Part shown: one piece after another, positions 26,875 to 50,214 of the stretch
Layout: each line of letters begins with the position of its first letter
Numbering within the stretch: position 1 is the stretch's first letter
NCBI GenBank assembly: GCA_026025075.1
Contig: JAPEUI010000011.1
Location: 1-64,000 of the forward strand
Reading direction: 5' to 3'
From: Vezdaea acicularis
Lineage: Eukaryota
Length of the DNA stretch: 64,000 nt
The notes under the pieces: model-generated
Databases searched by the model: none
Told to the model about the DNA's origin: nothing
What the model saw: only the letters and a program-made list of their open reading frames with translations
Position numbers and translations under genes: made by a program

Positions 26875-26930
26875 GGGACGCAGAATCTCAAGCTCACGTG
26901 CGGTCACGTGGATGGGGACTTTTTGCGTTC
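26875..26930 (-). promoter_or_regulatory. Composite motif copy AACGCAAAAA-N9-CACGTG-N4-CACGTG...CGTCCC
   Basis: Read directly on the minus strand; same spacing as the copies at 39.6-39.95 kb. Function is inferred only. Confidence 0.55.
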
Positions 26931-27517
26931 GGTTCATCGGTCTGGCGAACAGCGGGGGGAAAAATAAGGGGAACAAGTCGTTGACTTGGGGCATGCGTTC
27001 AGCCTTCAGCTTCAATTGAGTTGTCACAAGCTTCTTACTTCCGCTTGCCTTTTCTATTGTGTACAGCATCCTTGCTCTCACTTTTCAAGTGTTAATTTCA
27101 AGGCTTCTCTGAACTAAAGCGCGAGATGGTGAGAAGGGAGCGCGGATCAGGGGCGCTCGCTGCCTTTGAAAAAGACGCGTTAGCACGTAAGGTTACTCGT
27201 AGTCCAGAATGAATGATTCACAGAGATTGTTGAGTAGGACGATGACATTGAGTAAACTTTATTTATCGAGTGATCAAATCTAGCTACAATGGACAATTGT
27301 CTCAAACCAACAAGCCAGCAGCGCCTGAACCCTTGTCGCACTCGCAATGGTAGCAGAGAACGAACTTTCCCCGTCTCCCACCCACCATCTCGCGCCACGC
27401 AAAGCAGCAGTAGCGCCAGAAACCAAGAAAAAATTGGGGTATTAAGCAGTGACACAATATACACAAGAAGCGAACAGCGCCGCAAACGAGTAAAGGAAAA
27501 CCGTTCTATATCCAAGT

Positions 27518-29740
27518 TTAGATCATGCTTCCATTCACACTGATCTCGAAGCCATCGCCCTTCTGCTTCAGGGCCTTGGCGAGCATGAGCTCGCGCATCC
27601 AGTCGATGCGCTCGTCACGGCTCTTGACAGCAAAGTGATGCGTCTTGCCCGTTGCGGCGTGCTGGATACCGCGCTTGTCTGCAGCGGTGGGGATGAGCTG
27701 GAAAGCGAACGCGCCCTCATCGCCCTCCTTCTTCTTGCTACCGAGCTTCATCTGCTTGAAAGCGGCAGAGAGCTTGTTTGAGGCGATAGAAGAGCAGGCC
27801 ACGGCGAATTCGTCAACGTTGATGCTTTCGAGCTCTTCCTTTGTCAGGTGGTCTTTGTGCATGGCCAGCTCAGTGCCCTTTAGGCGGAAATGGTGCTCTT
27901 GCCATTCGTGGCGGAGCATCTTCGTCTTACGCTTCTTCATGTAGCCGGCGTGGTTGTATTCGCTGACGATGGGGGTGCGGCTGTCTTGGGTGGCGCCCTC
28001 CTGAGGGACTTCCCAAACGTCATCTTCATCAACTTTGCTGATGGTGAAGCTGGGGCGTGGACCGATGGGGGACATGCCAGAGAGACGGGAGGCGGGGCGG
28101 GAAAGCGTGGTGGAACCACGGCGGTAGCGCATGTCTGGTGGGACGGATTGGGAGGCATCGCGAGCGACGGGACCGGGGGAGACTGCCGTGGTGGGGACGT
28201 CCATTTCAGATGCAGGGGTGCCACGTCTAAAAGTTCCAGGAACTAGAGGGCGGTTGGGAGAGAAGAAGTTGTTGTTGCCATTCCACGGTGATTGGGCGGT
28301 CACGCACGGCGAGAAAGCCTCTGGTGATTTGAAGGTACGGCTAGGTTGAGCGGCGCTTGCAGACCTTTGGAGGAGGTTCGAGGATGGGGTCTGACCAGGG
28401 ATAGTGAGTTTTGGTAGCGATTGTAGAGTCCGAGGCTGCACATGTTGCTCCGGGAACATTTCCAAGCCCTGGGGAGAGAGATGGTCGATGTCCTGGCCCT
28501 GGCAATGTTGCAGGTCGAGGAATTGCTTAACATTCTCTTGAGGATCGCGAGATTGTAACGCTTTCAGGCTCTCTTCTTCCAAGGCGAACTCGGGAGTTTG
28601 GCCGGGCCCGAGGACGTCGGAAGAGGCCACGACTGAGGGTACGACCTCGCTGATGGGTCGTAGAGCTGGAGCCGTCAGGGTGTTGCCCGGGTTTCCAGCG
28701 AGGAAGATCATGCCACCAGCCCCAGGGCTGATCGGCCATTCAGTAGCAATCAGGTTCCTCTGCCTCTGCTGTCGTCGGTATTTGGCGCAGTTCTCGCCTT
28801 TGGCGCATTTGTGGGGTTTGGGGATGAGCTCCTCAATGCCCACGATGGAGACCGAGTCGATTGGCGAGATGACCCTGTCATCTGTCAACGGATTCTTTCG
28901 AACCTTGCGGCTGCTCTTCTTCTTCTTGAGCTCCGGGCGCCTCTCCTCATCCGAGTCGCAGTCTCCCACACGACGGAAGTCTTTGCTGCTGTCGCTGCTG
29001 GGCCGGCTTTCGATTGGGCTGCCGTCGGGGCTGCCGCGAAGATTGCATATCTCGGTCCACACCTTGCGACGTTTTCCAAACGACTTGATGTCCAGTTCTT
29101 TGAGGTCGTCAAACTTGAGGTCCACCAACACTGCGCCAGATATATCATTCGCTTCAAACTTGTCCACCACATTTCTATCGAACCCACTCTCGTACATCCA
29201 TCGAGCGACCTCCTGCGGCGACCACATTTGAATTTCGCCTGGGTCTAGCTGTGTGACCTGCTCCCTGAAGCTACCGTAATTTGGGTTTGCTGGGTTTGCC
29301 GAGTTGAGAAGATTCTCAGCGGCGGCGATGTCTGGAGTCTCTTTTGGGGTGATGGGCGACATCGTCAGGTGGAAGCTGTAGTCCTGTCCATCCTGAGACG
29401 CTCTGAAAAGGTGCGGCCCCACTGGTCCTTCTACTGGCCGACGTTCGATGTTGAAGTCGAAGGCCGAGAACTCGTTTTGGGGAGTCCTCAGATCACCGTA
29501 CGACGATAATGTGGTAGCATCGTCGCTCTTTCGACCCTCCTTGAGCACAGTCAGTATCTCCCGCGCCTTGCAGTACTCCCTCTGACAACCTACCGACTCT
29601 ATGCTTATTCTAGGCGATTCATCGCCATCGCTTAGCTCGCAATCTAGATCGTATATTTCTGTTGCTGTAGACATCGGCCGAGGCGCCAGCGCCTTTGGGT
29701 CGAGAAGGGATCCATATATACTTGTGGATCTCTGGAACAT
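27518..29740 (-). CDS. SAM and PH domain protein (Boi-related, no SH3 seen)
   Basis: SAM: WSPQEVARWM...FEANDISGAVLVDLKFDDLKELDIKSFGKRRKVWTEI. C-terminal PH: HAGYMKKRK...WQEHHFRLKG...HHFAVKSRDERIDWMREL. Probable 54-nt intron at 29593-29540. Confidence 0.9.
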   Translation of the reverse strand: MFQRSTSIYGSLLDPKALAPRPMSTATEIYDLDCELSDGDESPRISIESVGCQREYCKAREILTVLKEGRKSDDATTLSSYGDLRTPQNEFSAFDFNIERRPVEGPVGPHLFRASQDGQDYSFHLTMSPITPKETPDIAAAENLLNSANPANPNYGSFREQVTQLDPGEIQMWSPQEVARWMYESGFDRNVVDKFEANDISGAVLVDLKFDDLKELDIKSFGKRRKVWTEICNLRGSPDGSPIESRPSSDSSKDFRRVGDCDSDEERRPELKKKKSSRKVRKNPLTDDRVISPIDSVSIVGIEELIPKPHKCAKGENCAKYRRQQRQRNLIATEWPISPGAGGMIFLAGNPGNTLTAPALRPISEVVPSVVASSDVLGPGQTPEFALEEESLKALQSRDPQENVKQFLDLQHCQGQDIDHLSPQGLEMFPEQHVQPRTLQSLPKLTIPGQTPSSNLLQRSASAAQPSRTFKSPEAFSPCVTAQSPWNGNNNFFSPNRPLVPGTFRRGTPASEMDVPTTAVSPGPVARDASQSVPPDMRYRRGSTTLSRPASRLSGMSPIGPRPSFTISKVDEDDVWEVPQEGATQDSRTPIVSEYNHAGYMKKRKTKMLRHEWQEHHFRLKGTELAMHKDHLTKEELESINVDEFAVACSSIASNKLSAAFKQMKLGSKKKEGDEGAFAFQLIPTAADKRGIQHAATGKTHHFAVKSRDERIDWMRELMLAKALKQKGDGFEISVNGSMI

Positions 29741-32700: not shown

Positions 32701-34916
32701 GGCCGTCTCAAGGCGAAAGCTTTATAGCTTTGTTGATTGCGTAGCCAGCCGCAGACTACCTAATCTATCGAGAGATCAGAAGTGTGCTCAGATATCTGAT
32801 GGCGTGCATGACGGGGGGCAAAGGCCAGGCAGGTTTCATACCCATCGAATTAGCCCACATTCGCGGCGGGGATTTCTTCCTGATCGGGTTGAATTAGTTC
32901 CAGATATTATTAGCAAAGATAAGAGTCGGCATAGACGGACTTCCGGAACAGAGGAATTAGCGGTCATGCGGCGTGGGGAAGGGATCTCCCTTCGCAAGCA
33001 CGTTAAATGGCGTAAACGGCACAAAAGGGCATTAATTAGTGGTCTTTTTTTGGGTCAGGACGGGGAAGCATGGTTCTGTTCGCTTGAGGGCCCCCTGTCC
33101 GAGCTTCGAGAGCAGCCCCTAGCAGGGGCCAGCTTCCCTGGTCGGAACCAACCACGGCCCGAGATGCAGGTCTTGGCATCACATATCAAGCACGCTTGCA
33201 TGACGCGCACACCCACTCACGACATCGAAGTCCCTGCTCGCCGCGATTCTCATCCTGCACACCTCGCTCGCATCTGGCCTCGCGACCCTGACCCGGCTCC
33301 GCTTCCTTCGCTATCGATTATCGTGTTAAATTAGCATCCCGGCTCATCAGTCACGCCTATCGCCCCTCAATTGGCCGTTTCCGGCAATATTCAATTTCCC
33401 GCTCGCGAGCGGACGACGACCCCTCATTCGCCCCTGCGCTCGCTGCAGCGACCGGGTTTTTGCTCAACCACGCTCTCCACGCTGAGACCGGCGGGGGCAC
33501 GCGAGGCGAGGCATTTTGCTAGGCCTTCTGTCTCCGATGCCGGGAATGCCGTATTGAGGAGCGGCGTTGTCTTTCCCTTAAACGGACACGGACTGGAACA
33601 AGCTTGGGCCCCGAGTCGCAGCCGCATTGGCCGACGAGAGATTGAGCCGACGAAAGCCTTTTCCTTTCGTGTGCCCCAACGGTCTCGAGAGTTCAAGACC
33701 GGTATTCGCGATAGGATCAAACCTGCTCAGTCTAGAGGGTCGCAGCTGGGATGAGCCGGTGTGGTGGGAGGGCGAAGGAAGAAGAGAGCTTGCGCATCGC
33801 AGCTGATCGCGCAGGAAACGAAAGAGTCGGCGTGCGGACGCTGCTGCAAGTCAGTCTTCGCGGATGTGGTTCCCTCGGGAGCTAGGGGGGCTGGTCGGTC
33901 AAGGTCGATGTCGACGTTGACGGTAGCTCCATCGCCATCACGTCGCATCGCGTCGCAACACCGAAGCTGTCAGGAAGCTTGCGAGAAGCTCATTTCCCGT
34001 TTCTGTGCGATGCAAGGGTCCGCTCCGCACTCGCTCGGAGCATTCCCGGCCTGGCTCGAGTCATCGGCCTGCGTGGCGTGCGACCACCCTCGCTTCGTTC
34101 GCTTCGACTTCCACCTAGGACTGCATCGAGACGATCGAGGGGAGGGGAGGGAGAGCCGAGGGAGGATGGGCAGCACGGGCAGCATGGGCCGCACGGAACC
34201 TGCTCTTTTCTTAGAGAGCGAGGTAGGGTTGACCGCAAAAAGAGGGCGGGCCGTGACTTGCGGCGTGACCCCGGCCGGCGAGCTGGTCTGCTTCTGCGTT
34301 AGCGGCTGCTATCCTGGTTCGCATCTTCGCGCCTGCAAAAATAACCTTCGCGACCGGTGGCTGGCCGACTCGACCGACCCCTGCACGGACGGTGGTGGGA
34401 AGCAGGCCCGCGATAGGCCGGGGCGTCGCTGCCAAATACAGCGGCCAGCACGCGGAAGGTGCCCCCTCATCTCCCACCACGCCCGATGCGGAAACGTCGC
34501 ATGGAGGACCGGGGGTGCGACAGGGGTCCAAGAACACGCACAGGGGGGGGCCACACAGAAATAGATCCTGGCTTCTAGTGCGCATACGCTATGCACGGTT
34601 CCCGCTCTCGCCAAAGGGTGGGTGGGCGTGAGCTCTGGAACTATTCATAAATAAGGTCCCACCTCCAGCTTCACGATGCTTCCATCCAGACTCCAGGCGT
34701 TCGACTTTGCACCATTCCTCTTCACCCCATTCTCCCTCCTCTCTACAATATCATCGTCCGCTGGTCAGGCCTTGATATCCTCTCTTGTAATTAACGATCC
34801 TCCTTTTCTACTTCATCGTCGCCGCCTCGCCTCCTCGCTTACACCGCGAGTCCGTCGGACCTGTCAATACTCTCGACCCCCGACACCCCCCCCGAACCCC
34901 CACAACACCATACAAA

Positions 34917-36929: not shown

Positions 36930-39610
36930 GAATCTTTTCTCTCTCCCTGAATTGCATCACGAGTCTCCTATCACTTTCCTTTTTACAACATTAGATCGAC
37001 TTGATCGACATCAAATCTTGGCTATACCCACTTCCTACTATCTACTACTATCTACTATACTATCATTTACAAAACGCATAGCGAGGTTGGGACGGGTTTC
37101 CTGGCATTGCATCATCATCATCATCAATGGCTTGTTCCTACTGCTTACTACTAGCTACTTTTCCTTATTACCTTGCCGGGGAAATATGTAGGGGCGGGGG
37201 TTATATATCAGCGATTTACTACCCAAATACGAATCCCCTTACCAACTCATCAAACCTTTCTCTCCATCATCAATCTATCTATCTCTCTTCCTTATCCATC
37301 TCTTCAGCAGCAGCAGCAGCGCGCGGGAAGGGGGGCATTTCTCGGCAGGAACATCGAAATCCAGGCGTTTTTTTTCAGGGCCAGATATCAGGACAAATCT
37401 CTTTCTCTTTTCTCTCAAAGTCCGCCTCGTCTCCTTAGAATCAAGCTCCCCCTTTTCCCGCTCTATTTATCTCTCTCTTTTTCCTTACCTGTTCAATGGC
37501 TCGCGAATGGGTGGGAGTCTACTTGCTTGCTTCAGAGGAGGAGAAGGAGGGGGGAATCTAGCATTGCCCCCCCTCCCCCCCCCCAAAGGGGGCCGCTGCT
37601 AGTCAGACTGTGTATAGATGCCTAAACCATAAAAAACCATTTCCACCTACCTACTCTTCCTTCCGTCCGTTTTCTGCACGCTATGACGCCTGTGACGACG
37701 ATGTGAATATCCCTCCCCCATTCCAAACCCCAAGATCTGCACTCCCGTCCCTTGCCCGGCGCGTAAATTCCTGGCGTTCTCAACCCTCCCGAATGGAAGA
37801 CCAGGGGAAGACCAGGGGAGGGCGGCTACATAAAACGCCTGGCGCGTAGGGGTGGGAGCTGGCGGTTAGCGGGTGAGGGGGGGGAGGGGTGTGGAAATTA
37901 TTTTCATGACGGCTTTTTTTCTTTCGGTTTCTTCGGAGTTTCATTCTCTGTTGTGCAGAATGCGGGTTGGAAAGGGAGCGGAGCGGGGGGTTGGGTGATG
38001 AGAAGAGCCGTGGTGATGACGGGCCGAATTAACGATCGTGCAATCAGCGACAATTACTACCCATCCATGGCGTATAACTATACCACGCCAAGAACACAAT
38101 TCCTCTGCATGCCCAGGATATCGTGGTGCGGACACCGCTGAGCTTGCTGATGGGTTGTTGGACGCGGGACGGGGCGGGGGGATGGCGGGGATGTGCGGGG
38201 GGGGTAAGATGTGGGAGACGTGGACTCGACTTTTTGACTGCATCGCATCGCATTGGGGAGCTGGGGAAGCTGGGGGCTGGATGAAATTCTGTTTGCGTCC
38301 GTGCGCGCGCTGTTTTTTCTAGTAGCTAGCATACATACATGTACTTCATTCCGAGAGGAATAGGGGCATTTTCCGCGAGGTATCGGCGGCAAAGCGGGGG
38401 TTAGGATAGATGGTTCTACTACTGCCGACGCGGGGCACGCACGCAGCTGAATAGTATTCATCCGCGGTGTCCGCTTATTCTTCATGCCGGTAGTTAGGCC
38501 TAGTGAGTATATCCCGGGTTTCCTTCGAGGAACAGATTGCACGCGGTGGCGGATCGGAGCGGAGCGGGACGAGGTAGCGGCGGCAATGCTGGTTGCAAGG
38601 CGTGTTGGAGGCGAGAGCCGCGGTTGCATATCAGGTCTCTGCTGGTTGTTGCGCCAGCTGAGCGAGGGTTTTCGCTGCATATGCAGCGCGCGCCGAGAAG
38701 GGATATACGGCTGGTATCGGCGGCAGATACGCCTTGTGAAGGCCGCTGTGTTGGTGGCTTCCGCGTAGTGGATGTAGTTTTGTACCGCGGGGTTGCGCTA
38801 CACTTTGAGAGCATTCCCGTTCTGTTCGTGGGTGCATAAGCTCGTCCGAAAAGAGTGATTTCGCCAGAAAGTTAGCAGTTCTGCCTCATGCGATGATCTG
38901 TTGGGTCCAGCGGTCTGTCTTCAGATGAGCAGCTGATCCCACAGATACTGTACGAGTGCGGCGCGAGAGTTGCGCTATCAGCGTCTAGGCCCCACATCGC
39001 GATACCCAAGGCCTTCCTGCGCTTGCCCGCTTCGAAGTATTCGTGCACTAGTGCTCCGTAGTAGTGATTTTTGTTCTGCAGGCCCATATTCAGCTGACGG
39101 CTCGGATGGCATGCGTGTTGGTTGCCGCCGTTATCGCGGGGGGTTCATTTGTAGAGCGAGGGGCAGAGGATGGTTCTATCCCGACCCGCTTTTCGCGCAT
39201 GGCGGTGGCCTTTTCAGCTGGGATGGGACGGATGCAGACGCTGGGAGCGGAAGGGGCCTTGGGATCGGGCGGCTGCGGTTCATGCAGTGTTGTAGGTGGT
39301 AAGGCTTTTTGTTGGATGCGGTCAAGATATTGCGGGTCTTCCGCTTCCCGCTGCGGCCGCAGTTGAGGCCATCAAGTCTACCTGCGCCAAGACAGGATCC
39401 ATGGGGATTTCGTCAGAACCTCGACGATGGCACAACGATACTCTGAGGGCGGGGCGTTTCTTGCAAGCCTATCAGCCAGAGCTTACGATCTTGATGCCTT
39501 GGGGAAATGCTGATTTGAAGTTTGTATTACTTTCGACCTTCGGCGGCTAAGCGGCCATGCCCCTGTCACAAATCAAAAAATCTCGTAACCAATTCCAGCG
39601 CTCTCTTGAG

Positions 39611-39947
39611 AACGCAACGCAAAAACCACCTCCTCACGTGATTTACCTCTTTTTCACGTGACTTTCAACTTTCCGCATCACGACCCTCTCCTCAACGAAC
39701 AGCGTGGGGCCCCTCCGATCCATAATGCCCTCATCTCGACAATTACTAACGCAACGCAGAAACCTCAGCCCCACGTGCTTTCTCCCTTATATCCCGTGAT
39801 CTGCCACTTTCTACGTTGCGGGCGCCCTGCGGGACTGCCTGACGTCCTCGTAGCCCCAAACCCCCAACGTTTGGGGCTACGTTTTTCATGCAACGCAAAA
39901 AGGTCGATATCATGTGATATCACGTGATGCTTTCAATTTTCCGTCCC
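39611..39947 (+). repeat. Three degenerate tandem units (137 and 139 bp spacing) of GCAACGCARAAA-N9-CAYGTG followed by a second CACGTG-like box
   Basis: GCAACGCA at 39614, 39751 and 39890, each followed at identical spacing by CACGTG or CATGTG. The sequence between units is unrelated. Confidence 0.7.
39849..39886 (+). other. Perfect 13-bp hairpin with 7-nt loop followed by TTTTT
   Basis: CGTAGCCCCAAAC-ccccaac-GTTTGGGGCTACG-TTTTT. Confidence 0.7.
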
Positions 39948-40019
39948 GACGAGTGGTTAAGGCGTTAGACTGGTATAGATGTTACCTGATTGGCCACAAA
40001 ATTCGATATAAATTGAGAG
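39943..40019 (+). pseudogene. Decayed tRNA-like relic (Ser/Leu-type D-arm)
   Basis: GTCCCGA-CGAGTGGTTAAGGCG-TTAGA-CT matches a tRNA 5' half missing TGGC. TTCGA lies at 40002. The 3' stems do not pair. Confidence 0.35.
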
Positions 40020-40221
40020 GTTATCGGACTAGCAATCGCAGGCAGAATGCCCCAGAACCTTTGCGATATTCATAAGCTCCGGCTTGTGAAGGTACATTAA
40101 GCGCTTAGGGATGACTGCCCGTTTGTAGAATCAAGAGTCCGTATGCAGCGGGAGGAGTATGAAGTCATGAGGCTGATAATTTTCCTGTTCGCGAAAAACC
40201 GAAATTTGCAAAAAGTGAAGA

Positions 40222-43012
40222 ATGTCTACTCGGCCGGCCTTTCAAACGACATTCGAGCCTGAGAGGGTAATTCAGCCTATATATACAGGTGGAGGCGTTG
40301 CGCTTGACAGAAATGGTCAAATTCTCGCGACTTGCCTAGGTGAGGATGTTGTTTTAACAGACTTGCACAATGGAGAGCAACTAGCTAGAGTAGAGGGAGT
40401 AAGTGACAGTTGCAGCGCTCTCTAGGCTAAGAATTAAAGGCTGACATTCTGGTTGCGCTCTAGGATGGGGAGAGCGTCACGGCACTGTCTCGTAAGGAGA
40501 GCTTCACGATCGTCGTGCGCTCACTACTAACCCAATGCTAGTTTCACCCTCCGCGTCGCACTTGATCGTCTGTTCGCGTTCTCTGTCGATGAGAATATAT
40601 GCCCTCAAGCCTTCTCCCACAGCAGACTCGTCAATAAATATAGAACTCCTTCGGTCTCTCAAACCGCATAGCACACCCGTCGTCACTCTTACAACTGATC
40701 ATACTGGGACCCTTCTTGCGACAGGAGGGGCTGATGGCCAGATTAGAGTCTGGGATATACGAGGGGGTTATGCGACGCATACGTTCAGGGGACAAGGTGG
40801 CGTTATATCGGCTTTGCACTTCTTTGAGGTTCAGATTCTCGAAAGCGACATAGCGCAGTCGAAGAAGGGGGCCAAGAAAAGAAGGAAGTCTCAACCAGAG
40901 GAGATTGAGATAATAGTTGATGGCGACAGGCCCAAACAGCAATCGACCCACGGCTTTAGACTTGCTTCCGGTGTTGAAGATGGGAAGGTGTACATATGGG
41001 ACCTCGTTCAGCGCAAACGTGTGGCGACTTTGGAATCTCACGTCTCAGTGGTGCGCTCTTTGGATTTCTCGACTTCTGAGAACGCGTTGGTATCTGCAAG
41101 CCGAGACAAGACAGTTATTGTTTGGGATGCAAGGAGCTGGAAAACCAGACGAGTCATTCCTGTTTTCGAGAGCGTAGAAGCCACGGGTTTTCTACAGAGC
41201 GGGAGTGTAATCTATACAGGTGGGGAGAACGGTAGGTTACGATTATGGGAGACCGCCGATGGACGAGAGATTACTGAAGAGCAGGAAGTCAGAAGCGAGG
41301 GTGAAGGCATCGTTGACATGATATACCACGAAGGCCTCTCTTTCATCCTGACGGTACAAGGAGACCAATCTTTAGTGTTACATGCTCTGGAATCCCTCTC
41401 GACTTTCTCTAAAGGCCAAAATCTACCGCCATTGCCGGAAGTTAGTCGAATCTCTGGGACTCATGACGAAATTATCGATCTTGTATATGCTGGCCAGGAT
41501 CATTCGTACATGGCGCTGGCGACTAATTCGGAAAGTGTACGTATCATCTCTCTAGCTACAACTCCATCAAACCCGACAACAGACTCAACAGAGGGCACGT
41601 ACTTCGGCGCAGACGTTGGACTCTTACGAGGTCACCAGGACATTGTTATTTGCCTCGACACCGACTGGTCAGGCCAATGGATTGCAACCGGCGCAAAAGA
41701 CAACACTGCGAGACTCTGGCATATCAAATCCACAGGCTCCTCATTTACCTGTCACTGTACATTCACCGGCCACGCAGAATCTCTAGGCGCGATCTCTCTG
41801 CCTAAAATACGGCCCACAGATATACAGTCCGACCCTACAGCCGTGGAGCCACCCCCATATCTTCTGACAGGCTCACAAGATCGGACCATCAAAAAATGGG
41901 TCATCCCGCCCCTTTCTAATCCCTCCAAGTCTGCTGCTCGTGCCCTTTACACTCGTAAAGCACACGACAAAGACATTAACAGCATAGCTATCCACCCCAC
42001 ACAGCCGCTCTTTGCCTCCGCCTCCCAAGATCGAACCGCCAAGATCTATTCAACGGAGAATGGCGAAGTGCAGGGCATTCTAAAAGGCCATCGTAGGGGC
42101 GTATGGTCCATCGAATTTGCCCCCAATTCAATCGGCAACATTCCCGGCATTCCGTCTGCCCGCGGCTTCGTTGCTACAGGCAGCGGCGACAAGACCCTCA
42201 AGATCTGGTCCCTTCATGACTATAGCTGCGTACGAACGTTTGAAGGCCACACCTCCTCTGTCCTCAAGGCTCTCTGGCTCCCTTCATCAAACTCCGTCCC
42301 GCGACTAGCATCGTCTGGTGGCGACGGCTTGGTGAAGATCTGGGACGCTTCTGAAGGCGAATGTCTGGCTACGTTAGACAACCACACTGACCGCGTCTGG
42401 GCGTTGGCAGTGCACCCATCCGACACTGGCGTGCTGGTATCCGGCGCTGCAGACGCGGTGATCACCTTCTGGCGCGACACCTCATCCGAGACCGCCGCGA
42501 AAGCAGCCGCCAAGGAGGAAGAATTCATCGAGCAGGACCAAGCGCTCCAGAACTACATGCGTGCATCTGACTACCGCTCAGCAATCACCTTAGCGCTACA
42601 GCTCGAGCAGCCCGGAAGGCTCCTCAAGATCTTCCAGGACGTCCTCAACGCGCCGAAAGAAGAGGGGAGTCTCAGCGGCGTCAGAGCTGTCGACGAAGTC
42701 CTCGCACACCTCAGCGACTCGCAACTCCTAAAGCTCTTAAAGCGCTGTCGAGACTGGAATACCAACGCGCGCGCTGTGAATGTCGCGCAAAGGATCCTGG
42801 CTTGTCTCATCCGGATGTATCCCTCTGAAAGGCTTACGCGCTTGAGGGGCGTGAGAGAGGTGTTCAAGGGCTTGGAGTCGTACACGGAGCGCCATTTGCG
42901 CAGAGTCGAGGGGCTGTTGGAGGAGAGCTGGATCGTGGAATACACCCTGGGAGAAATGGATGGGCTGAATCTTGGCAGAGGAGAGGGAGCTGGGTTGATT
43001 ATGGAGAGGTAG
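40222..43012 (+). CDS. UTP13: U3 snoRNP / SSU processome WD40 protein Utp13
   Basis: N-terminus TTFEPERVIQPIYTGG; introns 40399-40463 and 40492-40541 flanking a 28-nt exon; many WD repeats (HDKDIN, GHRRGVWS); C-terminal Utp13 domain EQDQALQNY...RDWNTNAR...YTERH. Confidence 0.93.
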
Positions 43013-43265
43013 GGGAGTGTTGATAAGAGGAAATAGTATATACGAGTGTGATTCCCGATTGTTTTTCGCATGGAATAGCCTGCACTGGTACTCAGAAAAA
43101 ATGGAAGCTGGGTGGCAAGTGCGGCACGACGCGAAATGGCGTCACGAAAAGACGTTGATCAATGAGTAATGTAGGCTTAAGGGGAACTATGCAATCTTTC
43201 TCTGGACTTCATAAACGCTAAAAGCACAAGTGAATGAATACAACGAAAGACATCCCCACAGCTCT

Positions 43266-46200
43266 CTACCGTCCAAACTCCAGATTCGGGATGACGACCG
43301 GTCCATACTTGGTCGTCACTGCTCCGTACGCGCCCTCACCCTGGACCATGAAATCTACTGCCAAGCTGAGCATGCCCTTCCCGCTCCGACCGCCGCCTTC
43401 AACGCCATACATGGCGCCGTTCATATCCGGGTCGAAGGCGACGCAGGCGACGTAGTTTCTGCGCGGACAAAGCTTCTTCAGTTCACGTGGACGGCCGTCG
43501 GGCTCGAGGCCGAAGACTTCCATCATGTCTTCTTTGGTGTCCGAGGGAGCGTTTGTGGACTTGTGCCCGTTGGCGGGGATGTAGAGGGGTTTGTTGTTGT
43601 GGAGCATTTTCAGAGTCCAGCCAGGAGGCGGGGAGGCTCCGACGATGGAGGAGGAGATGATCTGGTACATGGTCTTGTGATCGGAGGGGTGGGCCGGGTC
43701 ATGCAGGAGGCCGGCACCGCAGGATCCGACGTCTGTGGGAACATGGTTAGCGGATCTTTTCAAATATAGGATTTATTCGAAGTGTGGAGACTTACCACCA
43801 GAGAAGAAAGTCATGCGGATGCTCTTCTGGTGCGAGATTCCTTGCAAGGTGCGGATGAGGTATGTGCGTTCGAGATCCTTGGAGTCGTGCGTCCAGGAGT
43901 CGCGGATTTCGTCTGCAATCTCGATATCACCGAAGGGGTTGAGGATACTGCTAAGTGCACCCGTCTTACCAACCGCCCTCTTTGCAGTGGTGAAGCCCTC
44001 AGCTACAGCAGCCTTAGCGCCAAAGACGCCAGCAGCCGAACTGGTGGCCTTGCCCAATAGGTTGTAAGCACCTGTCACGGCTTTCTTGCCCGTTGCAACG
44101 GTCTGTGTCAAGCTTTCCATGGCTTCAAGGCGTGGGTAGACGAGTGGGACACTGATCATCCAAATACAATGCTGAACGCTTGGCGGGAGGGTTGCCACCT
44201 TTGGGAATATACCTTGATACGTCGGTCCAGCCATAACTTGATGAGGGTTCCGTTCTGAGCGGCAGTCAGGCCCAATGACAACTAGCGCTGGGCCAAGGTA
44301 CTTGACAAAGTGCCAGCCGGTACCGGTGATGGTGAAGAGATCCCTGTCATCGCTGACATTCCGGAGGATCTCGAGAGTAGTGTGATGCTGGAAAAGGAGA
44401 TACATCTCTATGCCGATGCGCCCGATGTTCTTAAACATGTGAGAGAATTGCATATACTCCGGATAGGAGCCGAATCCGGCAAAACTATGATCCAGTCAGT
44501 ATCAGTCAACGAGTCATAACCGAAAATACCTACATGTCATGGTCATCAATTTGTAGGACATGCGGGATCTGTGCAAACGCCTCTCTGATCTGCGGTTGGT
44601 CGAAATGACTGGTGTAATAATGGAAATATGCATGGTTGACATCTTCATCGTGCTTGGCTGTCCAAGGGGCGTTTTTCCTGTTCTCTTTGCCGCTTGTAGC
44701 AAGCCACTGCTTTAATAGAGGAATATCTTTCCACATTCGATCTGCATAAATCTGATCACCGAGACCAAGTTGCGTGTGAAACCCACCACATTGGATGTGT
44801 TTCTCCATGATGTCCTTCCACATCAAGCTGATGCCGCCAACATTCTCTCGCTGCGTTGCACTCACGGTGAGAGCAAAGTCATTGCCTGAATGGGCGATGA
44901 ACCGCCAGCCACTCTCATATCGGCCAGCGACTAGGAACTCATATCGAGTGCATCCTAGATGGGATGTAATAGCATAGGTCCACTTGGCGCTTCCCGCCTC
45001 CTCCATCTGTAGGTCAACATCATAGCGATAAAATACCCATCTCTGATGAGTAAAGATCGGATTCGCTTTGAGTTGTCGTGCTGCATATGTCATTAGCGAG
45101 ATGAACGAAGTAAGGGGCAGATAACTCACGATTCGGGGAAAGGTCAACGCTCTGATGAATATGGATCGTGGGAGGTTGAGGAGCGTCAGTAACAAGCATG
45201 ATTGAGCCTAACCACAACCCTCGCTCCATATCCATGTTGGTGTATCTGAGATAAGGCCCGAAATAGACACCATTGGTGGGAGCAACTTTGTACATATCCA
45301 CTCCGCTACTTGGTGGGGGTCCACTAATGCCTGCAGCCGTGGGTGTTGCTGCGCTCATACTCATGCTCATGACGCTGGGCGCGTAACCCGGGGTTCCCGG
45401 CGGGGCAAATCCTGGTGTCATGGGGGAGGCAAGCCCATGCTTTCCAAACATGCTCAAGCCTGGTGAAGCCAAAGGATGAGCAGAAAACACGCTTCCTACA
45501 GGTGATGTAGGCTCGTTCATATTGTTTGGTAGCGGTCCTTTTGGAAATTCCCATTGGGTGGACTGCGTTGGAAGGTGAATGTAGTAGTACTGACCCGAAT
45601 TCTGGTCCAGATGCGCGATCCAACCCTCTGGTAGCGGAGGAGGGGAACTGGGTCCTGCGCCTCCAGCTGGTGGTGCAACTGCAGTCTGTTGGATTGGGTC
45701 GCCAGAGTTCTTGCCTGGCTGCGGAGACTGAACTTGATGAGCGGGGTCGTTGGCAAAGGCTGGATGACTCTGGTTTTGACTGGCATCATGGGGTGCAGCA
45801 CCAGCGACAGCCGCGCCAACAGCGGCTCCCGCCGCAGCTCCCCCTGCGCCGGCCACAGCAGCGCCTCCTATAGCCCCTGGGCCAGCACCATGCTTCTCAT
45901 TTGGATACCCCGTACTAGTGGTAGGCGCGCCAACACTATCATAAGCAGGAGGCGGGGAGCTTGTCAGTTGCATACGCTGAAAGTCTTGTTCGAGTGCATT
46001 TTGTGCTGAGCCCGCTCGAGGGGGGCCGCCAGGTCGAGGAGCCTGGGGCGTTGGCTGTTGAACGGGGGGCGACGCACTAGAATCCACCTCGTTGGGCCCT
46101 TGATAGACCGTGGGTGGCCCATACGGCTGACTTCCTGGCTGTTCAGTTGGTGTCCATGGCCGGCGAGGTGGTGCTTGCTGGGACGCTGTATTCTGTGGGG

Positions 46201-47068
46201 GTGGTCGTCCGCCATATTGATTTGCCCTGTGGGCTGCAGCAGCACCCTGAGCCTGCAGGCTTGTCAAAGTTGCGGCGCCTGCGATACCTGCAGCTGCATA
46301 ACGCGCTTCGATATCTGCTGCTGGCCCAGCGTCGTTGTTGTCAGTAGCTGGAGTCTCAGGAGGTGGTGGGGAGCCTCTTGTCGCCTTTGTCGTTGCCGTC
46401 GAGTCGAACCGGCCGATAGTGGGCTTAGGGGCAGCCAAGCCGCCGTTAGAGGCGCCAGGAGCGGCAGGAGATGCAGCAGAGCCAGGAGCCCCAGGAGGGG
46501 GCCAATATTGTTGGTGAAACTCAGGAAATGGATTCACGTCGGGGGGGGCGGGTCGAGAGCCGCTTCCCTGAGTAGGCGGTTGCTGACCTGCAGCACGCTG
46601 TGGTGGCTTTGCAAAAAGCCCCTCTCCATCTGTTATATCCTGCCCCGGCGAGTCTGGAAGAGGCTTTGGAACAACGTTCCCCCGTCTCTCTGCCAATTTC
46701 ACCGGTTTCTGTTCACCGATCGGACTGAAGCCTTCAGCTGCCAACGGGCTCGTCGCCTGCTGCCGCTCATTGTTCTGACCTGGTGGATGGTATGGTTTAT
46801 AGGAGGAGGCGCTGCTACCGGAGTTCTGAGTCTTGACGGTCGGCCGGTCGTTAGGATATGGGAGAGGGTTCGGAGAGCTCGTAGAGCCGGGGGGGAGAGG
46901 GAAATTCGAAGGTATGCTCGAGCCATCCAGGCGATCTCCACCCGCAGGAGAAGCCCCGCCCAACTTGCTGATGCGCAAAGGCTCCACTGTGGGGGTTTCT
47001 GGCTCTGTCGATGGCTTACTGAGGAACATCTCCTCCTCTGGCCGACCTTGACGGCCGACTCCGACCAT
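43266..47068 (-). CDS. Pro-rich WW-domain protein with a C-terminal PhoD-like domain
   Basis: Introns 45129-45081, 44533-44485 and 43795-43733. WW: PLPEGWIAHLDQNSGQYYYIHLPTQSTQWEFP. PhoD-like GLGDQIYAD, DDHD, DCRSER and SGDV. Confidence 0.85.
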
Positions 47069-48239
47069 CTTGGCGACTTAGAGAGGAGGCCGGATATCGC
47101 TGTTTTCTGGATCTAGCGCGACGGCGGTTTGACAGAGATCCAGAAGATGGTCTTGTCAGAGAGTCAGAAGTCTTGAAACGGTTGGTAGATGAGATCAGAG
47201 TAAGCAGTAGGTGAGGGGGAATCTCCCGACGGTACGACCGCAATGGACTTGGTCGCAAGAAAGGCCGAGAGGTCGGGGATTTAAAGGCGGGATTCTTCAG
47301 AGCTCGATACTCCTGTTCTACAGACTATTGACCTAAAGCTGGGCAGGCGCGAAGGACATCTCGATGAACTAGAAGTCCGGCTCGAATCGCGATTTCCCGT
47401 GGGCGACTCATCTGTGCCTGGGCCACGCGCGCTGTGATTGGAAGTGGAAGCGCTGGCCACCGACCACCACCATGGAAAGCGCAAGCTCCACGCGGGCGGG
47501 CGCCCTCCTCGGCCGCGGTCTGGGAGGACTGCCGCGTATGCGGCGCCGTTTGATTGCTGCTAATTATTGATCAGAGCCCTCTTAGGACGTTCTTTCATCC
47601 CGCATATCGCCCGCTCCTGACCAAGCTCCCTTTTCTTTTGCGGGTTAAGGCCGTAAAGCCTCTCTAACGGCGCCGCTTACGGCCCTCCCCACGATCTTGG
47701 CTCGCGGGTGTTCTGCAGTAGGAGGCGGCGGTAAACTTGCCAAGCATTTACCCCTGCCCCACGTCCACTCCCTTGGCCGCGGGCCGGCAGACTTTGTGCT
47801 ATTTGCAGCTGAGCCTTGCAGAGAGCAGGGCAGCATATTGTTATGAATACGGACTATATGTTGGTACGACATGCAGGGGAATACTTCGTGCATCTCGTGA
47901 AGATAAGGCTGGGCTGCACCTTCTCTTCTACGGCGCAGCTAGCCAACCTGCAGCTACTGGATATAGCAGCGGCTGGGCCCATGTTTCTCAGCCTCGACCG
48001 AGGTTCAAATGAGCTCAGCCTGCCCCCACGATATCCGTCCAATATCCTTCCTTTCAATCTTCAATTCCCTAGATATAAGTACCAGTGCCACCGACTGATA
48101 CTTCTTTCTCTTGTTCTATCTGCCACATCCTTCTTTCTCAACTCGCGTTCACCAGCACGAGGGTTTTCATTTGTGCCGAAGTGCGATTTGAAACTAGTTG
48201 GGGTTTGAAATCTTAGATCTTAGCATTCCAACTTCCGTC

Positions 48240-49850
48240 ATGAACTACCCACCGCCTCCCCCACAGCAGCAGATGCAGAGTCCCCCACCTGCCTATGCTC
48301 AAACGGCCCCAGTCCAACACGACGAGCGTTTAGCATACGGAAACGATTACCAGCAGTACCCTTCTCAGCCGGTACCGAACTCATACCACAATGCCAATCC
48401 CACACCACAGCCGCACGAGGCACAAAAATATGAGAATCCACCTATTCCCAGTGCGTATGGAAATCCTAGCCCCTTCCTAGGGCAGCAGTCCGTTCCTCCA
48501 GAGCAATCAATGCTACCACCGCCCCAGTATCAACAGCCTCAGACGCAATCCATTGACCAAAATTACGGCGGCATTGACGAGAAGATGGCGATGATGAAAC
48601 TATCTGCGATGGGAATGAGCCAGCCCGGCGTACAGGTTCATTCATACGCACAACCGCCGGAAATTGCTGGAGCTGGAGCAAGCCCGGCTTTCAATCAGCC
48701 CCAACAGCCTCCCAAAATGGGCGATGAGCAGAAAACGAGCAAGACGAAGCGGTTTTTAGGAGACACATTAGTTGGCCGCTTCGCCCGCGCAAGCGTTGCG
48801 ACTGCGAGCTCTACTCTCAAGATGCCTGCATCTTTGTCACCGTGGGGAGACAACAACCCTGTCACGCTCCCCAATGTTCGATATCGTGATGCTGTACTCT
48901 TCACGACGTTCGCCTTTGTAGGCGGTGATCTAGTTACAGGCGTTTCTGACGCTGCCACAGGCCTCTTGGGCGCTGACAGTTTCGTAGCCGAGATAATTAG
49001 TTCAGGAGCAGGAGTTATTGTCGGCAGTACTATAATCAAATACGGGGTATTCCAGATCGTGGAAGGTCTGATCGATGAAGGTATCCTGGAACATCTGATA
49101 CCAGAGGAGCAGAAGATAATCCAGACCACGAGCGTCAAGACGATGCAATGTGCTATTAAGCACAAGCTTATGGGTGTTGACGCAGACATCCGACTTGTAG
49201 GAGTCTACGACGCCAAGAACTTTTTTGCGTGCGAAAAAGGCTGGTTTTGCCCATATCTCTTTGCTTCGGCAAGGAGACCTATCATACCCCGGAAACATGA
49301 TTTTGCGATTGCCCAGTGCTTTGGGCCGTTCCTGGGAGCAGATTACGCACTCGCCCACAAGCTCCTCGCTGAAACCGAGACCTGCCTTGCGCTCTGCGAC
49401 CCCGACCCAACTCACGACATCGGGTGCAATCGACTAATAGTCCTCTTCCTTGGTATTTCCCCTTACCGCGGCGGAAAAGACGTATGGTCGTCCTCGCGGC
49501 GTCCGTCCGAGGGTTTACTACTCTTCCACCTCCTGAACGGCTGTCCTGCTCTTGTCTTACCTGTCAACAAACAAGCCCCGCTTCTTGCTTGGTCGCCGTG
49601 GACACTCTTGCAGATGTGGTCCGGGCAGCCATACGACGCGGGGTTACAACATAGTGAGCTTTGCGAATACTTGGACACGCTGGTAGAGCTTGGGAAGTGC
49701 TACGACGTTGTCCAGAGCCGATATGAGGACGTACTGGCTAGGTGCATGAGTTTGGTTATTAACGGTGCCATGAACACGAAATACGTCAATCCAGAGGTTC
49801 TGAAGAAGGTGGATCCGGAAAGGGCCGGGATTGTCATGTTTAGGTATTGA
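48240..49850 (+). CDS. Hypothetical protein (536 aa) with Q/P-rich N-terminus, hydrophobic Gly-rich middle and globular C-terminus
   Basis: Long intronless ORF, TATAA at about 48074 and a CT-rich leader. No family recognised. Confidence 0.8.
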   Translation: MNYPPPPPQQQMQSPPPAYAQTAPVQHDERLAYGNDYQQYPSQPVPNSYHNANPTPQPHEAQKYENPPIPSAYGNPSPFLGQQSVPPEQSMLPPPQYQQPQTQSIDQNYGGIDEKMAMMKLSAMGMSQPGVQVHSYAQPPEIAGAGASPAFNQPQQPPKMGDEQKTSKTKRFLGDTLVGRFARASVATASSTLKMPASLSPWGDNNPVTLPNVRYRDAVLFTTFAFVGGDLVTGVSDAATGLLGADSFVAEIISSGAGVIVGSTIIKYGVFQIVEGLIDEGILEHLIPEEQKIIQTTSVKTMQCAIKHKLMGVDADIRLVGVYDAKNFFACEKGWFCPYLFASARRPIIPRKHDFAIAQCFGPFLGADYALAHKLLAETETCLALCDPDPTHDIGCNRLIVLFLGISPYRGGKDVWSSSRRPSEGLLLFHLLNGCPALVLPVNKQAPLLAWSPWTLLQMWSGQPYDAGLQHSELCEYLDTLVELGKCYDVVQSRYEDVLARCMSLVINGAMNTKYVNPEVLKKVDPERAGIVMFRY

Positions 49851-50184
49851 GTTGGGAATGATGGGACATGGGCTAGATGGCGATTGGGCGTTACGATGGT
49901 TGGATCATAGAGGTACACTATCAAGTGCAGTATAATAGAGGAAATAGAATAAAATCTCAGGGGATCAGGTGCTCAGAACTTGACACAAAAACCGGGAAGC
50001 TCATGTGTAGTGAAATCGCGGAGAGAGGAGCCTACGGTGGCGGCCGTTACCCTGCTCACCAAGCCAGAACGATGGGAGACAGGATTGATCATCCTCAAGG
50101 TATCTTCAGCTTCACACCGTCGATAGTGAAAACTAGACCTCATGAACTAATACGGATGAGCAATGCGGTTCCGGAGGTGCCAAA

Positions 50185-50214
50185 AACGCGACGCAAAAGT
50201 GGAAGTTTCACGTG
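50185..50214 (+). promoter_or_regulatory. Composite motif copy AACGCGACGCAAAAG-N9-CACGTG between convergent genes
   Basis: Read directly; same ACGC-to-CACGTG distance (14 nt) as the other four copies. Confidence 0.45.

What the first reader, a model, noticed from the sequence alone, without database searches (positions are those of the whole stretch)
26875..50214. Recurrent fixed-geometry element ACGCARAA-N10-CAYGTG (five copies), near strand-skew switches
Seen: copies at 26905-26929 (minus), 39614, 39751, 39890 (plus) and 50191 (plus). All have exactly 14 nt between ACGC and the box, while the spacer sequence differs. Four have a second CACGTG-like box 4-15 nt further on. The 50.2-kb copy lies between convergent 3' ends, so it is not a simple promoter. 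By eye, the plus strand turns from G-rich to C-rich near each cluster (about 26.65, 39.55 and 50.35 kb). Established: CACGTG is the bHLH/Cbf1 (CDEI-type) site, CG-capped A-tracts exclude nucleosomes, and yeast replication origins show skew inversions. Inference: a composite protein-binding element, possibly a sequence-defined replication origin, recombination hotspot or boundary. I know of no description of this arrangement.
Basis: partly seen in the sequence, partly recalled or inferred. Interest (0 to 1): 0.75.

Follow-up and report, generated by a model that had tools for sequence, protein, structure and literature searches.

The report
Paired E-box promoter element, fixed partner box
A filamentous fungus carries, in three gaps between genes, a rigidly spaced pair of short DNA boxes, one of them the well-known fungal promoter motif CACGTG, that most likely bind cooperating gene regulators and do not mark a DNA replication start.

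Summary
The motif is real. ACGCARAA-N10-CAYGTG occurs 5 times, against 0.00 expected, and 5 of the window's 11 ACGCARAA boxes are coupled to an E-box at exactly N10.

It is more structured than reported. Four of the five copies are one arm of a head-to-head dyad: outer box, N10 (N9 in one arm), E-box, 4 to 15 nt, E-box, N10, mirrored outer box. E-box centres lie 10, 10, 20 and 21 bp apart. The outer box extends to about 13 nt, CGCAACGCARAAA.

The window is from a Pezizomycotina fungus. Three dyads lie 303-574 bp upstream of UTP13 and one lies 450 bp upstream of ATG5. The fifth copy lies between convergent 3' ends.

E-box flanks are of the TCACGTG type (9 of 10). This is the type footprinted in Aspergillus promoters.

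Best reading: a cooperative regulator-binding composite that acts as an upstream activating or nucleosome-free-region element. The partner protein is unknown; its box resembles both a forkhead-like GACGCA site and an Ndt80 site.

The skew switches exist only at scales of 500 bp or less and vanish at 2 kb, so nothing supports a replication origin.

Generality could not be tested: no genome or RNA data were available, and the metagenome scan gave a null result.

The parts
26878..26900 (+). Left arm of the ATG5-upstream dyad: ACGCAGAA, N9, CACGTG. This is the only arm with 9 rather than 10 nt.
26905..26928 (-). Right arm of the ATG5-upstream dyad: canonical ACGCAAAA-N10-CACGTG. The two E-boxes are 10 bp apart centre to centre.
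39617..39640 (+). Dyad 1, left arm (canonical), preceded by a second ACGCA pentamer.
39655..39678 (-). Dyad 1, right arm, degenerate (ATGCGGAA, 2 mismatches). E-box centres are 20 bp apart.
39754..39777 (+). Dyad 2, left arm (canonical, ACGCAGAA).
39793..39816 (-). Dyad 2, right arm, degenerate (ACGTAGAA with CACGGG, 2 mismatches). The extended outer boxes of the two arms form a 13-nt, 92% complementary inverted repeat (39750-39762 and 39808-39820). E-box centres are 21 bp apart.
   Evidence: pair I2.
39893..39916 (+). Dyad 3, left arm (canonical outer box, CATGTG E-box).
39921..39944 (-). Dyad 3, right arm (ACGGAAAA, 1 mismatch). E-box centres are 10 bp apart.
   Evidence: pair I4.
50191..50214 (+). 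Single canonical arm between convergent 3' ends. Its outer box GACGCAAAA fits both GACGCA and gNCRCAAAW.
50267..50272 (.). Second TCACGTG box, 52 nt beyond the first. A TTGCGT follows it after 5 nt, which is not the canonical geometry.
40222..43012 (+). UTP13 (ribosome biogenesis). Dyad centres lie 574, 437 and 303 bp upstream of its ATG.
   Evidence: Pfam Utp13 and WD40. Residues 1-65 of exon 1 align to residues 1-65 of Utp13 chain 5oql_J, E 4e-15.
25222..26453 (-). ATG5 (autophagy). The dyad centre lies 450 bp upstream of its ATG.
   Evidence: Pfam ATG5_UblA and ATG5_UblB. The N-terminus aligns to 4gdk_B from residue 12 to residue 13.
48198..49850 (+). Conserved gene of unknown function. Its stop lies 341 bp before the 50.2-kb arm.
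   Evidence: 301 homologues, all named 'hypothetical'. No Pfam family.
50416..51064 (-). Mitochondrial pyruvate carrier gene. Its stop lies 144 bp beyond the second E-box.
   Evidence: Pfam MPC.

Best explanation
The element is a cis-regulatory composite in intergenic DNA of a Pezizomycotina fungus. It joins a Cbf1-type E-box (TCACGTG, bound by a bHLH-zipper dimer) to a partner box of about 13 nt (CGCAACGCARAAA) held exactly 10 nt away.

The spacer is free in sequence but fixed in length. The two boxes are therefore most likely read together, either by two proteins that touch each other or by one protein with two DNA-reading parts.

Arms are usually placed head to head with the E-boxes inside. 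The E-box centres then lie one or two helical turns apart (10, 10, 20, 21 bp). This would put both bHLH dimers on the same face of the helix and would allow a higher-order assembly.

I infer that such assemblies act as upstream activating or nucleosome-free-region-forming sites. In that role they would resemble general regulatory factor sites, which occur at promoters and sometimes between convergent genes.

What is shown: the geometry, the statistics, the intergenic and upstream positions, and the E-box flank type. What is inferred: which proteins bind, that they bind cooperatively, and the effect on chromatin and transcription.
For: - Coupling: 5 copies against 0.00 expected, with 0 of 100 shuffles giving any match.
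- Outer box: ACGCARAA occurs 11 times against 3.97 expected (0 of 100 shuffles reach 11). Six of the 11 stand 9-10 nt from an E-box, so the uncoupled remainder of 5 is at the chance level.
- E-box: the total count is at chance (13 against 11.6), but 8 of the 13 lie in the three clusters.
- Mirrored arms: allowing 2 mismatches adds 3 matches (8 in all against 1.30 expected). All 3 are the mirrored arms directly beside canonical arms.
- Phasing: E-box centres are 10, 10, 20 and 21 bp apart (coordinates).
- Not copies by descent: the three UTP13 units align only at the boxes. Tandem Repeats Finder finds no repeat of about 138 bp. The arms are not complementary outside the boxes.
- Positions: dyads lie 303-574 bp upstream of the UTP13 ATG and 450 bp upstream of the ATG5 ATG.
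- Flanks: 9 of 10 element E-boxes have T at position -4 on at least one side (binomial P 0.0036).
- Aspergillus niger: TCACGTGATC is a top ATAC-seq footprint motif and drove a reporter, and the 5' T is said to exclude Pho4-type factors (passages).
- Other filamentous fungi: CACGTG peaks about 70 bp upstream of transcription starts in Aspergillus nidulans (passages). It is the second most conserved promoter motif in Fusarium (passages).
- Yeasts: CACGTG/Cbf1 is proposed as an ancestral nucleosome-depleting general factor (passages).
Against: - Only one 64-kb window with three loci could be examined. No whole genome is held. No RNA run was listed.
- No binding, accessibility or transcription-start data exist for this organism.
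- The neighbouring genes (UTP13, ATG5, and a convergent pair) share no obvious regulon.
- One copy is not upstream of any recognised gene.
- The RPL11 and SmB promoters in the window lack the element, although E-boxes are linked to ribosomal genes in Aspergillus and Fusarium.
- The mirrored arms are degenerate (1-2 mismatches), and one arm has N9.
- The outer box fits no known site cleanly. Two of the 6 strong boxes read GACGCA and 4 read AACGCA. Four of 6 contain CRCAAA and 2 do not.
- The main text and Table S7 of the A. niger footprint study list no ACGCAA-like motif. The main text of the Fusarium motif catalogue lists none either. The partner box may therefore be lineage-specific.
- The metagenome scan showed no N10 peak: 7 of 122 matches.
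Confidence: 0.62

Rival explanations
1. Sequence-defined replication origin. Initiator proteins would bind the composite, and the skew switches would mark divergent forks.
For: Local G-to-C switches rank 1st, 3rd and 6th in the window within about 300 bp of the three clusters. One copy lies between convergent genes, a common place for origins in yeasts (recalled).
Against: The switches disappear at 1-2 kb. With 2-kb windows, 37%, 6% and 49% of positions show at least as large a change. Equal or stronger local switches occur without the element at 43175, 25700 and 8625. The offset between switch and element is inconsistent: about 280 bp and 90 bp to the left of the first arm at 26.9 and 39.6 kb, and about 55-110 bp to the right of the boxes at 50.2 kb. 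The largest skews are properties of gene bodies (ATG5 +0.27, zinc-cluster gene -0.15). There is no AT-rich unwinding stretch; GC is 0.46-0.52 in the six 250-bp bins nearest each cluster. From recall, no sequence-defined origin is known in filamentous ascomycetes.
Confidence: 0.04
2. Upstream element of one specific regulon, not a general promoter organiser. Two versions are possible. One is a growth and ribosome-synthesis programme with an Fhl1-like forkhead on the outer box. The other is a starvation programme with an Ndt80-family factor (of the VIB-1 or XprG type).
For: The canonical Fhl1 core is GACGCA (passages), and the Ndt80 site is gNCRCAAAW (passages). The 50.2-kb box GACGCAAAA fits both. 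UTP13 is a ribosome-biogenesis gene and carries three dyads. ATG5 is a starvation-response gene. E-box targets in A. niger and Fusarium are enriched for ribosome genes.
Against: UTP13 and ATG5 would be expected to respond in opposite directions to nutrients (established knowledge, not tested here). RPL11 in the same window lacks the element. Four of the 6 strong boxes read AACGCA, not GACGCA, and 2 of 6 break the CAAA core. One copy has no gene downstream.
Confidence: 0.2
3. Phosphate-starvation element bound by the Pho4 orthologue (NUC-1 or PalcA) on CACGTG.
For: CACGTG is the Pho4 core, and Fusarium authors matched their CACGTG motif to Pho4. A PhoD-type phosphatase gene lies in the window at 43269-47077.
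Against: 9 of 10 element E-boxes carry the 5' T that is reported to block Pho4-type binding. The phosphatase gene's own upstream region (47.1-48.2 kb) has no E-box. UTP13 and ATG5 are not phosphate genes.
Confidence: 0.05
4. Remnant of a small mobile element or a duplicated segment, so that the boxes are shared by descent rather than kept for binding.
For: The elements have an inverted-repeat layout of 51-63 bp. Three units are spaced 137 and 139 bp apart upstream of UTP13.
Against: Spacers differ completely between copies and between the two arms of one copy. The units align only at the boxes. There is no 138-bp tandem repeat. The 26.9-kb and 50.2-kb regions hold no inverted repeat of 10 nt or more.
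Confidence: 0.03

Closest known systems
The TCACGTGA(TC) promoter E-box of filamentous ascomycetes (A. niger ATAC-seq footprints, PMC8419926; A. nidulans CACGTG at about -70 from transcription starts, PMC4046813; Fusarium motif M2, PMC2853525). Passages read.
   Same: Same core and same 5' T flank. Unit 3 and the stand-alone box at 21631 even read ATCACGTGAT. Same upstream, intergenic position.
   Different: Those studies describe a single box. Their main texts, and Table S7 of the A. niger study, mention no partner box at fixed distance and no dyads. Other supplements were not read. The binding protein is uncharacterised there too.
Cbf1 sites of yeasts: CDEI (RTCACRTG) and Cbf1 as a general regulatory factor (PMC2897762, passages). 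Also the Cbf1-Met4-Met28 complex, which reads an extra short motif beside the E-box (recalled, not checked).
   Same: An E-box with a T flank. A proposed role in keeping DNA free of nucleosomes. Precedent for cofactors that add a second sequence requirement next to the E-box.
   Different: The yeast cofactor motif is directly adjacent, not 10 nt away, and is a different sequence. No Cbf1 orthologue of this fungus could be examined.
Forkhead-like (FHL) sites GACGC/GACGCA of Fhl1, FOXN1 and FOXN3 (PMC10287902 passages; search listings).
   Same: The outer box contains ACGCA in all 6 strong copies, and GACGCA in 2 of them.
   Different: Four of the 6 copies have A, not G or C, before ACGCA. The invariant AA(A) tail and the tandem ACGCA-ACGCA are not part of the FHL motif. 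No pairing with an E-box is described.
Middle sporulation element gNCRCAAAW bound by Ndt80 (PMC1326232, passages).
   Same: CGCAAA(A) in 4 of the 6 strong outer boxes fits CRCAAA(W).
   Different: The two ACGCAGAA copies and all three degenerate arms break the CAAA core. No E-box partnership is known.
Rigid-geometry fungal sites: the Candida albicans Tbf1 palindrome TTAGGGN6CCCTAA (PMC2834713, passage), and the Aspergillus CCAAT-complex/HapX bipartite site with an 11-12 bp offset (recalled, not checked).
   Same: Fixed spacing or a palindromic layout of two short boxes, read by a protein assembly at promoters.
   Different: Different boxes and proteins. Neither involves an E-box.

Membership tests
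Cbf1-type E-box (RTCACRTG / TCACGTGA) | CACGTG (or CAYGTG) core | tested here: met
   8 CACGTG, 1 CATGTG and 1 CCCGTG (= CACGGG on the other strand) in the elements.
Cbf1-type E-box (RTCACRTG / TCACGTGA) | T at position -4, which distinguishes it from Pho4-type sites | tested here: met
   9 of 10 boxes have it on at least one side and 4 have it on both (P 0.0036). The rule itself is cited.
Cbf1-type E-box (RTCACRTG / TCACGTGA) | Bound by a Cbf1-like bHLH-zipper protein | not testable with these tools
   No genome, protein or binding data for this organism.
Cbf1-type E-box (RTCACRTG / TCACGTGA) | Position about 70 bp upstream of transcription starts (A. nidulans) | not testable with these tools
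   No RNA run was listed. Only distances to ATG codons are known: 303-574 bp and 450 bp.
FHL forkhead site | GACGC(A) core | tested here: inconclusive
   GACGCA in 2 of 6 strong boxes and AACGCA in 4 of 6. The degenerate arms read ATGCGG, ACGTAG and ACGGAA. Core taken.
Ndt80 middle sporulation element | CRCAAA core within gNCRCAAAW | tested here: inconclusive
   Present in 4 of 6 strong boxes. Absent from 2 strong boxes and all 3 degenerate arms. Consensus taken.
MBF/SBF cell-cycle boxes (ACGCGT, CRCGAAA; consensus recalled) | CGCG or CRCGAAA core | tested here: not met
   None of the 9 outer boxes contains it. Only the pentamer upstream of the 50.2-kb box reads ACGCG.
Replication origin | Strand-skew inversion that persists over kilobases | tested here: not met
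   Present at 250-500 bp only and gone at 2 kb.
Replication origin | AT-rich, easily unwound stretch beside the initiator site | tested here: not met
   GC is 0.46-0.52 in the six 250-bp bins nearest each cluster.
Replication origin | ORC/MCM binding and initiation | not testable with these tools
   This needs ChIP, nascent-strand mapping or plasmid-maintenance assays.
Miniature inverted-repeat mobile element | Arms complementary along their length, with copies related by descent | tested here: not met
   Complementarity is limited to the boxes, and spacers are unrelated.

The most novel reading that the evidence does not exclude
The dyads may be the sites of a so far undescribed, lineage-specific promoter-organising assembly. 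Two TCACGTG-bound bHLH dimers would sit on one face of the helix, each locked to a partner protein on a 13-nt CGCAACGCARAAA box exactly 10 nt away. The assembly would open bidirectional nucleosome-free regions wherever it sits, including between convergent genes. There it would start antisense or non-coding transcripts, or act as a boundary. In this reading the local G-to-C switches are the footprint of divergent transcription from these sites. The partner box would give a handle on the still unidentified factor behind the most common promoter motif of filamentous ascomycetes.
Probability: 0.13. Interest if true: 0.7.

Novelty: new variant of a known kind. Interest (0 to 1): 0.4.

Why it matters
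CACGTG is among the most enriched and conserved promoter motifs in Aspergillus and Fusarium. The A. niger authors nevertheless state that the bHLH factors behind it are poorly characterised.

A partner box at a rigid distance, arranged in helically phased dyads, would be a concrete piece of cis-regulatory grammar. It makes sharp predictions. Changing the spacing should abolish function. Two proteins should bind cooperatively, or one protein should have two DNA-reading modules. Such predictions could help identify the proteins involved.

If the element recurs genome-wide at the density seen here (5 copies in 64 kb), it would be a major feature of promoter architecture in a little-studied fungal lineage. 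If it is confined to a few loci, it is an ordinary composite enhancer.

Tried and rejected
- **RNA evidence:** no RNA holder was listed for 40201-50200 (one search was a length slip).
- **Viral control scan:** The 17 share no further feature, so I treat this as noise.
- **Metagenome scan requiring two E-boxes:** The spacing distribution is flat, with N10 in 7 of 122. None of the 7 shows a mirrored outer box. Two of them (L157, L158) have no long ORFs and could not be placed.
- **Earlier findings of this scan:** nothing for this genome or its relatives, and nothing relevant by keywords.
- **Non-coding RNA genes beside the sites:** no tRNA. No Rfam hit at gathering score. At E up to 1 over 26000-51500, only a weak mir-483 match at 37536.
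- **Tandem duplication or mobile-element origin:** rejected.
- **A gene on the far side of the 39.6-kb cluster:** no Pfam family at E up to 1e-5 and no ORF above the codon-score cut-off in 36.93-40.22 kb.
- **Pfam six-frame annotation:** I passed 260 of the 327 ORFs of 70 aa or more, plus one 65-aa ORF. The 67 left out overlap genes already identified.
- **Literature strings:** searches for ACGCAAAA, for CACGTG with GACGCA, and for 11-nt forms of the extended box returned primer-type hits only among those listed (20 of 795, 15 of 746 and 12 of 67).
- **Other papers:** the search for Cbf1, CACGTG and Pezizomycotina gave one unrelated paper. The snoRNA/RP paper and the SsNdt80b paper gave no usable motif.
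- **Supplements:** A. niger supplement 13 holds no sequences.


Full report
**1. The observation**

The pattern ACGCARAA-N10-CAYGTG matches five times. The sites are 26905-26928 on the minus strand, and 39617, 39754, 39893 and 50191 on the plus strand. None of 100 dinucleotide-preserving shuffles of the window gave any match.

The window holds only 11 ACGCARAA boxes on both strands, against 3.97 expected, and 0 of 100 shuffles reach 11. Five of the 11 are followed by CAYGTG at exactly 10 nt. A sixth, at 26878, is followed at 9 nt. The remaining five are at the chance level, and at least two of them lie inside coding sequence (41772 in UTP13, 49223 in the 550-aa gene).

Scanning spacings 0 to 40 gave more than one hit only at N10 (5 hits) and N20 (2 hits). 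The hits at N9, N19, N20 and N30 are side products of second E-boxes or of the mirrored arm.

CACGTG itself is not over-represented (13 against 11.6 expected). However, 8 of the 13 copies lie in the three clusters.

**2. The element is a dyad**

Allowing two mismatches gave 8 matches against 1.30 expected. The three extra matches are mirrored arms on the minus strand, directly beside the three canonical plus-strand arms upstream of UTP13: 39655-39678, 39793-39816 and 39921-39944. At 26.9 kb the mirrored arm is the N9 copy at 26878.

Four of the five copies are therefore one arm of this structure: outer box, N10, E-box, 4-15 nt, E-box, N10, mirrored outer box. The dyads span 51, 62, 63 and 52 bp.

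In all four dyads the E-boxes are inside and the outer boxes outside. The E-box centres are 10, 10, 20 and 21 bp apart, which is one or two helical turns. With four cases this is suggestive only.

The fifth copy, at 50.2 kb, has a second TCACGTG 52 nt away. A TTGCGT follows that box at a different distance.

The outer box is longer than eight bases. Across the three UTP13 units, GCAACGCA-AAA is invariant. In unit 2 the extended boxes of the two arms form a 13-nt, 92% complementary inverted repeat (pair I2). Four of the six strong arms carry a second ACGCR pentamer directly upstream.

Outside the boxes the units do not align. There is no 138-bp tandem repeat. The arms are not complementary. The boxes are therefore kept as boxes and are not inherited as parts of a repeat.

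**3. Context**

The window is fungal. Pfam finds a Zn2Cys6 regulator with the fungal-specific transcription factor domain, UTP13, a WW-PhoD phosphatase and a SAM/PH protein.

Six-frame scans add Vps27, an eEF1A-like GTPase, Hsp70, an HlyIII-family protein, Thoc5, a dienelactone hydrolase, ATG5, MPC, SmB, RPL11, pyruvate carboxylase and clathrin heavy chain.

The 550-aa protein next to the 50.2-kb site has 301 homologues, all unnamed. The closest named ones come from Geoglossomycetes (52-54% identity) and from Dothideomycetes and lichen-forming fungi (about 56-65% over part of the protein). The organism is therefore a Pezizomycotina with no close sequenced relative in that database.

The UTP13 start codon at 40222 is supported: exon 1 aligns residue for residue with residues 1-65 of Utp13 chain 5oql_J. 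The ATG5 start at 26453 fits human ATG5 from residue 12 to residue 13.

The three dyad centres lie 574, 437 and 303 bp upstream of UTP13. The 26.9-kb dyad lies 450 bp upstream of ATG5, in the 1,064-bp gap that also takes the 3' end of the SAM/PH gene.

The 50.2-kb arm lies 341 bp beyond the stop of the 550-aa gene, and its second E-box lies 144 bp beyond the stop of MPC.

No ORF in 36.93-40.22 kb has a Pfam family at E up to 1e-5 or passes a codon-usage score trained on the window's genes. Whether the UTP13 cluster is also a divergent promoter is therefore open.

No tRNA or Rfam family lies beside any site.

**4. Skew**

With 250-bp windows, the G-to-C switches at 26600, 50325 and 39525 rank 1st, 3rd and 6th among independent switches in the window.

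The switches fade quickly, however. With 2-kb windows the changes are 0.05, 0.14 and 0.02, and 37%, 6% and 49% of all positions do at least as well.

Switches of similar size occur without the element at 43175, 25700, 8625, 34650 and 30375.

The position of the switch relative to the element also varies: about 280 and 90 bp to the left of the first arm at two sites, and about 55-110 bp to the right of the boxes at the third.

The strongest skews belong to gene bodies (ATG5 +0.27 on the plus strand, the zinc-cluster gene -0.15). The coding strand is C-rich in 11 of 18 genes.

At 50.3 kb the C-rich patch is in part the antisense of the Lys/Gly/Ala-rich C-terminus of MPC.

I read the switches as short-range composition of flanking genes and of pyrimidine tracts near promoters. 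Divergent transcription from the sites may contribute, but that is inference. Nothing here resembles a replication-scale inversion.

**5. What binds**

Nine of the ten element E-boxes have T at -4 on at least one side, and four have it on both (P 0.0036).

In A. niger, TCACGTGATC is among the top ATAC-seq footprint motifs. Its targets are enriched for ribosome and translation genes, and a footprint containing it drove a reporter. The authors note that the 5' T excludes Pho4-type factors, and that the responsible bHLH proteins are uncharacterised (passages).

In A. nidulans, CACGTG is one of three top promoter motifs. It peaks about 70 bp upstream of transcription starts and co-occurs in A. fumigatus orthologous promoters (passages).

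In Fusarium it is the second most conserved promoter motif and is enriched at ribosomal protein genes (passages).

In budding yeasts, CACGTG is nucleosome-depleted in most species that diverged before the whole-genome duplication, and Cbf1 is proposed as an ancestral general regulatory factor (passages).

The E-box half is thus a known kind of site.

The outer box is not. It contains the forkhead-like core (GACGCA for Fhl1) in 2 of 6 strong copies, while 4 read AACGCA. It contains the Ndt80 core CRCAAA in 4 of 6. It never contains a CGCG cell-cycle core.

A Neurospora preprint reports about 500 promoters with joint Mbp1-, Fkh2-, Tye7- and Rfx1-like signals (passages). That could be a blurred view of a similar composite, but this is speculation.

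No ACGCAA-like motif appears in the main texts of the Fusarium and A. niger catalogues, nor in A. niger Table S7. Other supplements were not read.

String searches for the box returned only primer-type hits among the papers listed.

**6. Mechanism proposed**

A bHLH-zipper dimer sits on TCACGTG. A partner contacts it from a box exactly 10 nt away. The spacer is free in sequence and fixed in length, which is the signature of protein-protein contact or of a protein with two DNA-reading modules.

Two such units are set head to head, one or two helical turns apart. This may allow a tetramer-like assembly.

The assembly would hold the DNA open and serve as an upstream activating site. It could perhaps work in both directions, which would also explain a copy between convergent genes.

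Geometry, statistics and position are shown. Everything about proteins and chromatin is inferred.

**7. Limits**

The evidence is one window and three loci.

- No genome is held.
- No RNA run was listed.
The viral control showed 17 of 118 at N10, with no shared features.
- Neither scan informs on fungi, and orthologous upstream regions could not be fetched afterwards.

**8. Verdict**

This is a real, highly non-random composite, richer than first described. Half of it is a well-known fungal promoter motif. The rigid partnership and the dyad layout appear to be undescribed in what I could search. It is most likely a promoter or nucleosome-free-region element and not an origin. I rate it a new variant of a known kind, of moderate interest.

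Noticed in passing
window 39849-39881 (+), T-run to 39886: A perfect 13-bp stem (CGTAGCCCCAAAC / GTTTGGGGCTACG) with a 7-nt loop, followed by TTTTT, lies between dyads 2 and 3. The 96-nt stretch folds at -38.8 kcal/mol, z -3.7, and 0 of 200 shuffles fold as well. It looks like a terminator or Pol III stop. Its meaning in a fungal promoter is unknown.
   Followed up: partly
window 39948-39975 (+): Directly after dyad 3 lies a stretch (GAGTGGTTAAGGCGTTAGACTG) that resembles, from recall only, the D-arm and anticodon stem of a tRNA-Ser gene. ARAGORN and Rfam call no tRNA here. It may be a tRNA fragment.
   Followed up: partly
window 36930-40221: A stretch of 3.3 kb upstream of UTP13 has no Pfam-bearing ORF (E up to 1e-5) and no ORF with gene-like codon usage. 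It is G-rich on the plus strand from 37 kb onwards (2-kb skew +0.07 to +0.09 for 37-40 kb). It could hold a non-coding RNA or a very atypical minus-strand gene.
   Followed up: partly
window about 24000-48000: A GC-rich domain (0.52-0.62 in most 2-kb windows, dipping to about 0.50 near 40-42 kb) is flanked by DNA mostly at 0.46-0.50 GC (one peak of 0.525 at 13-15 kb). The edges are gradual and do not coincide with the elements.
   Followed up: no
window 39540-39550 (+): TCGGCGGCTAA matches, from recall, the yeast URS1 (Ume6) consensus. It lies 67 bp before dyad 1. A match of this length could be chance in 64 kb.
   Followed up: no
window 39588-39592 and 39991-39995: CCAAT boxes (one on each strand) flank the three-dyad cluster. 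CCAAT-complex sites are common in Aspergillus promoters.
   Followed up: no
window 21413, 21631, 51162: Stand-alone TCACGTG boxes without an outer box lie in other gaps between genes. The box at 21631 reads ATCACGTGATC, which is the A. niger footprint consensus. The box at 51162 lies about 100 bp upstream of the MPC start.
   Followed up: partly
window 43269-47077 (-): A WW domain and a complete PhoD_2 phosphatase domain appear to belong to one long gene of several exons.
   Followed up: no
window 9427-10881 (-): ORFs antisense to the Hsp70 gene match Pfam PF10712, 'NAD-specific glutamate dehydrogenase'. From recall, this family is a known artefact of antisense Hsp70 translation and not a gene.
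   Followed up: no
L001-L118 (viral contigs): In the viral control scan, spacing N10 was the commonest of the 13 spacings (17 of 118; P 0.009 uncorrected). The 17 sites share nothing else. Probably noise.
   Followed up: yes
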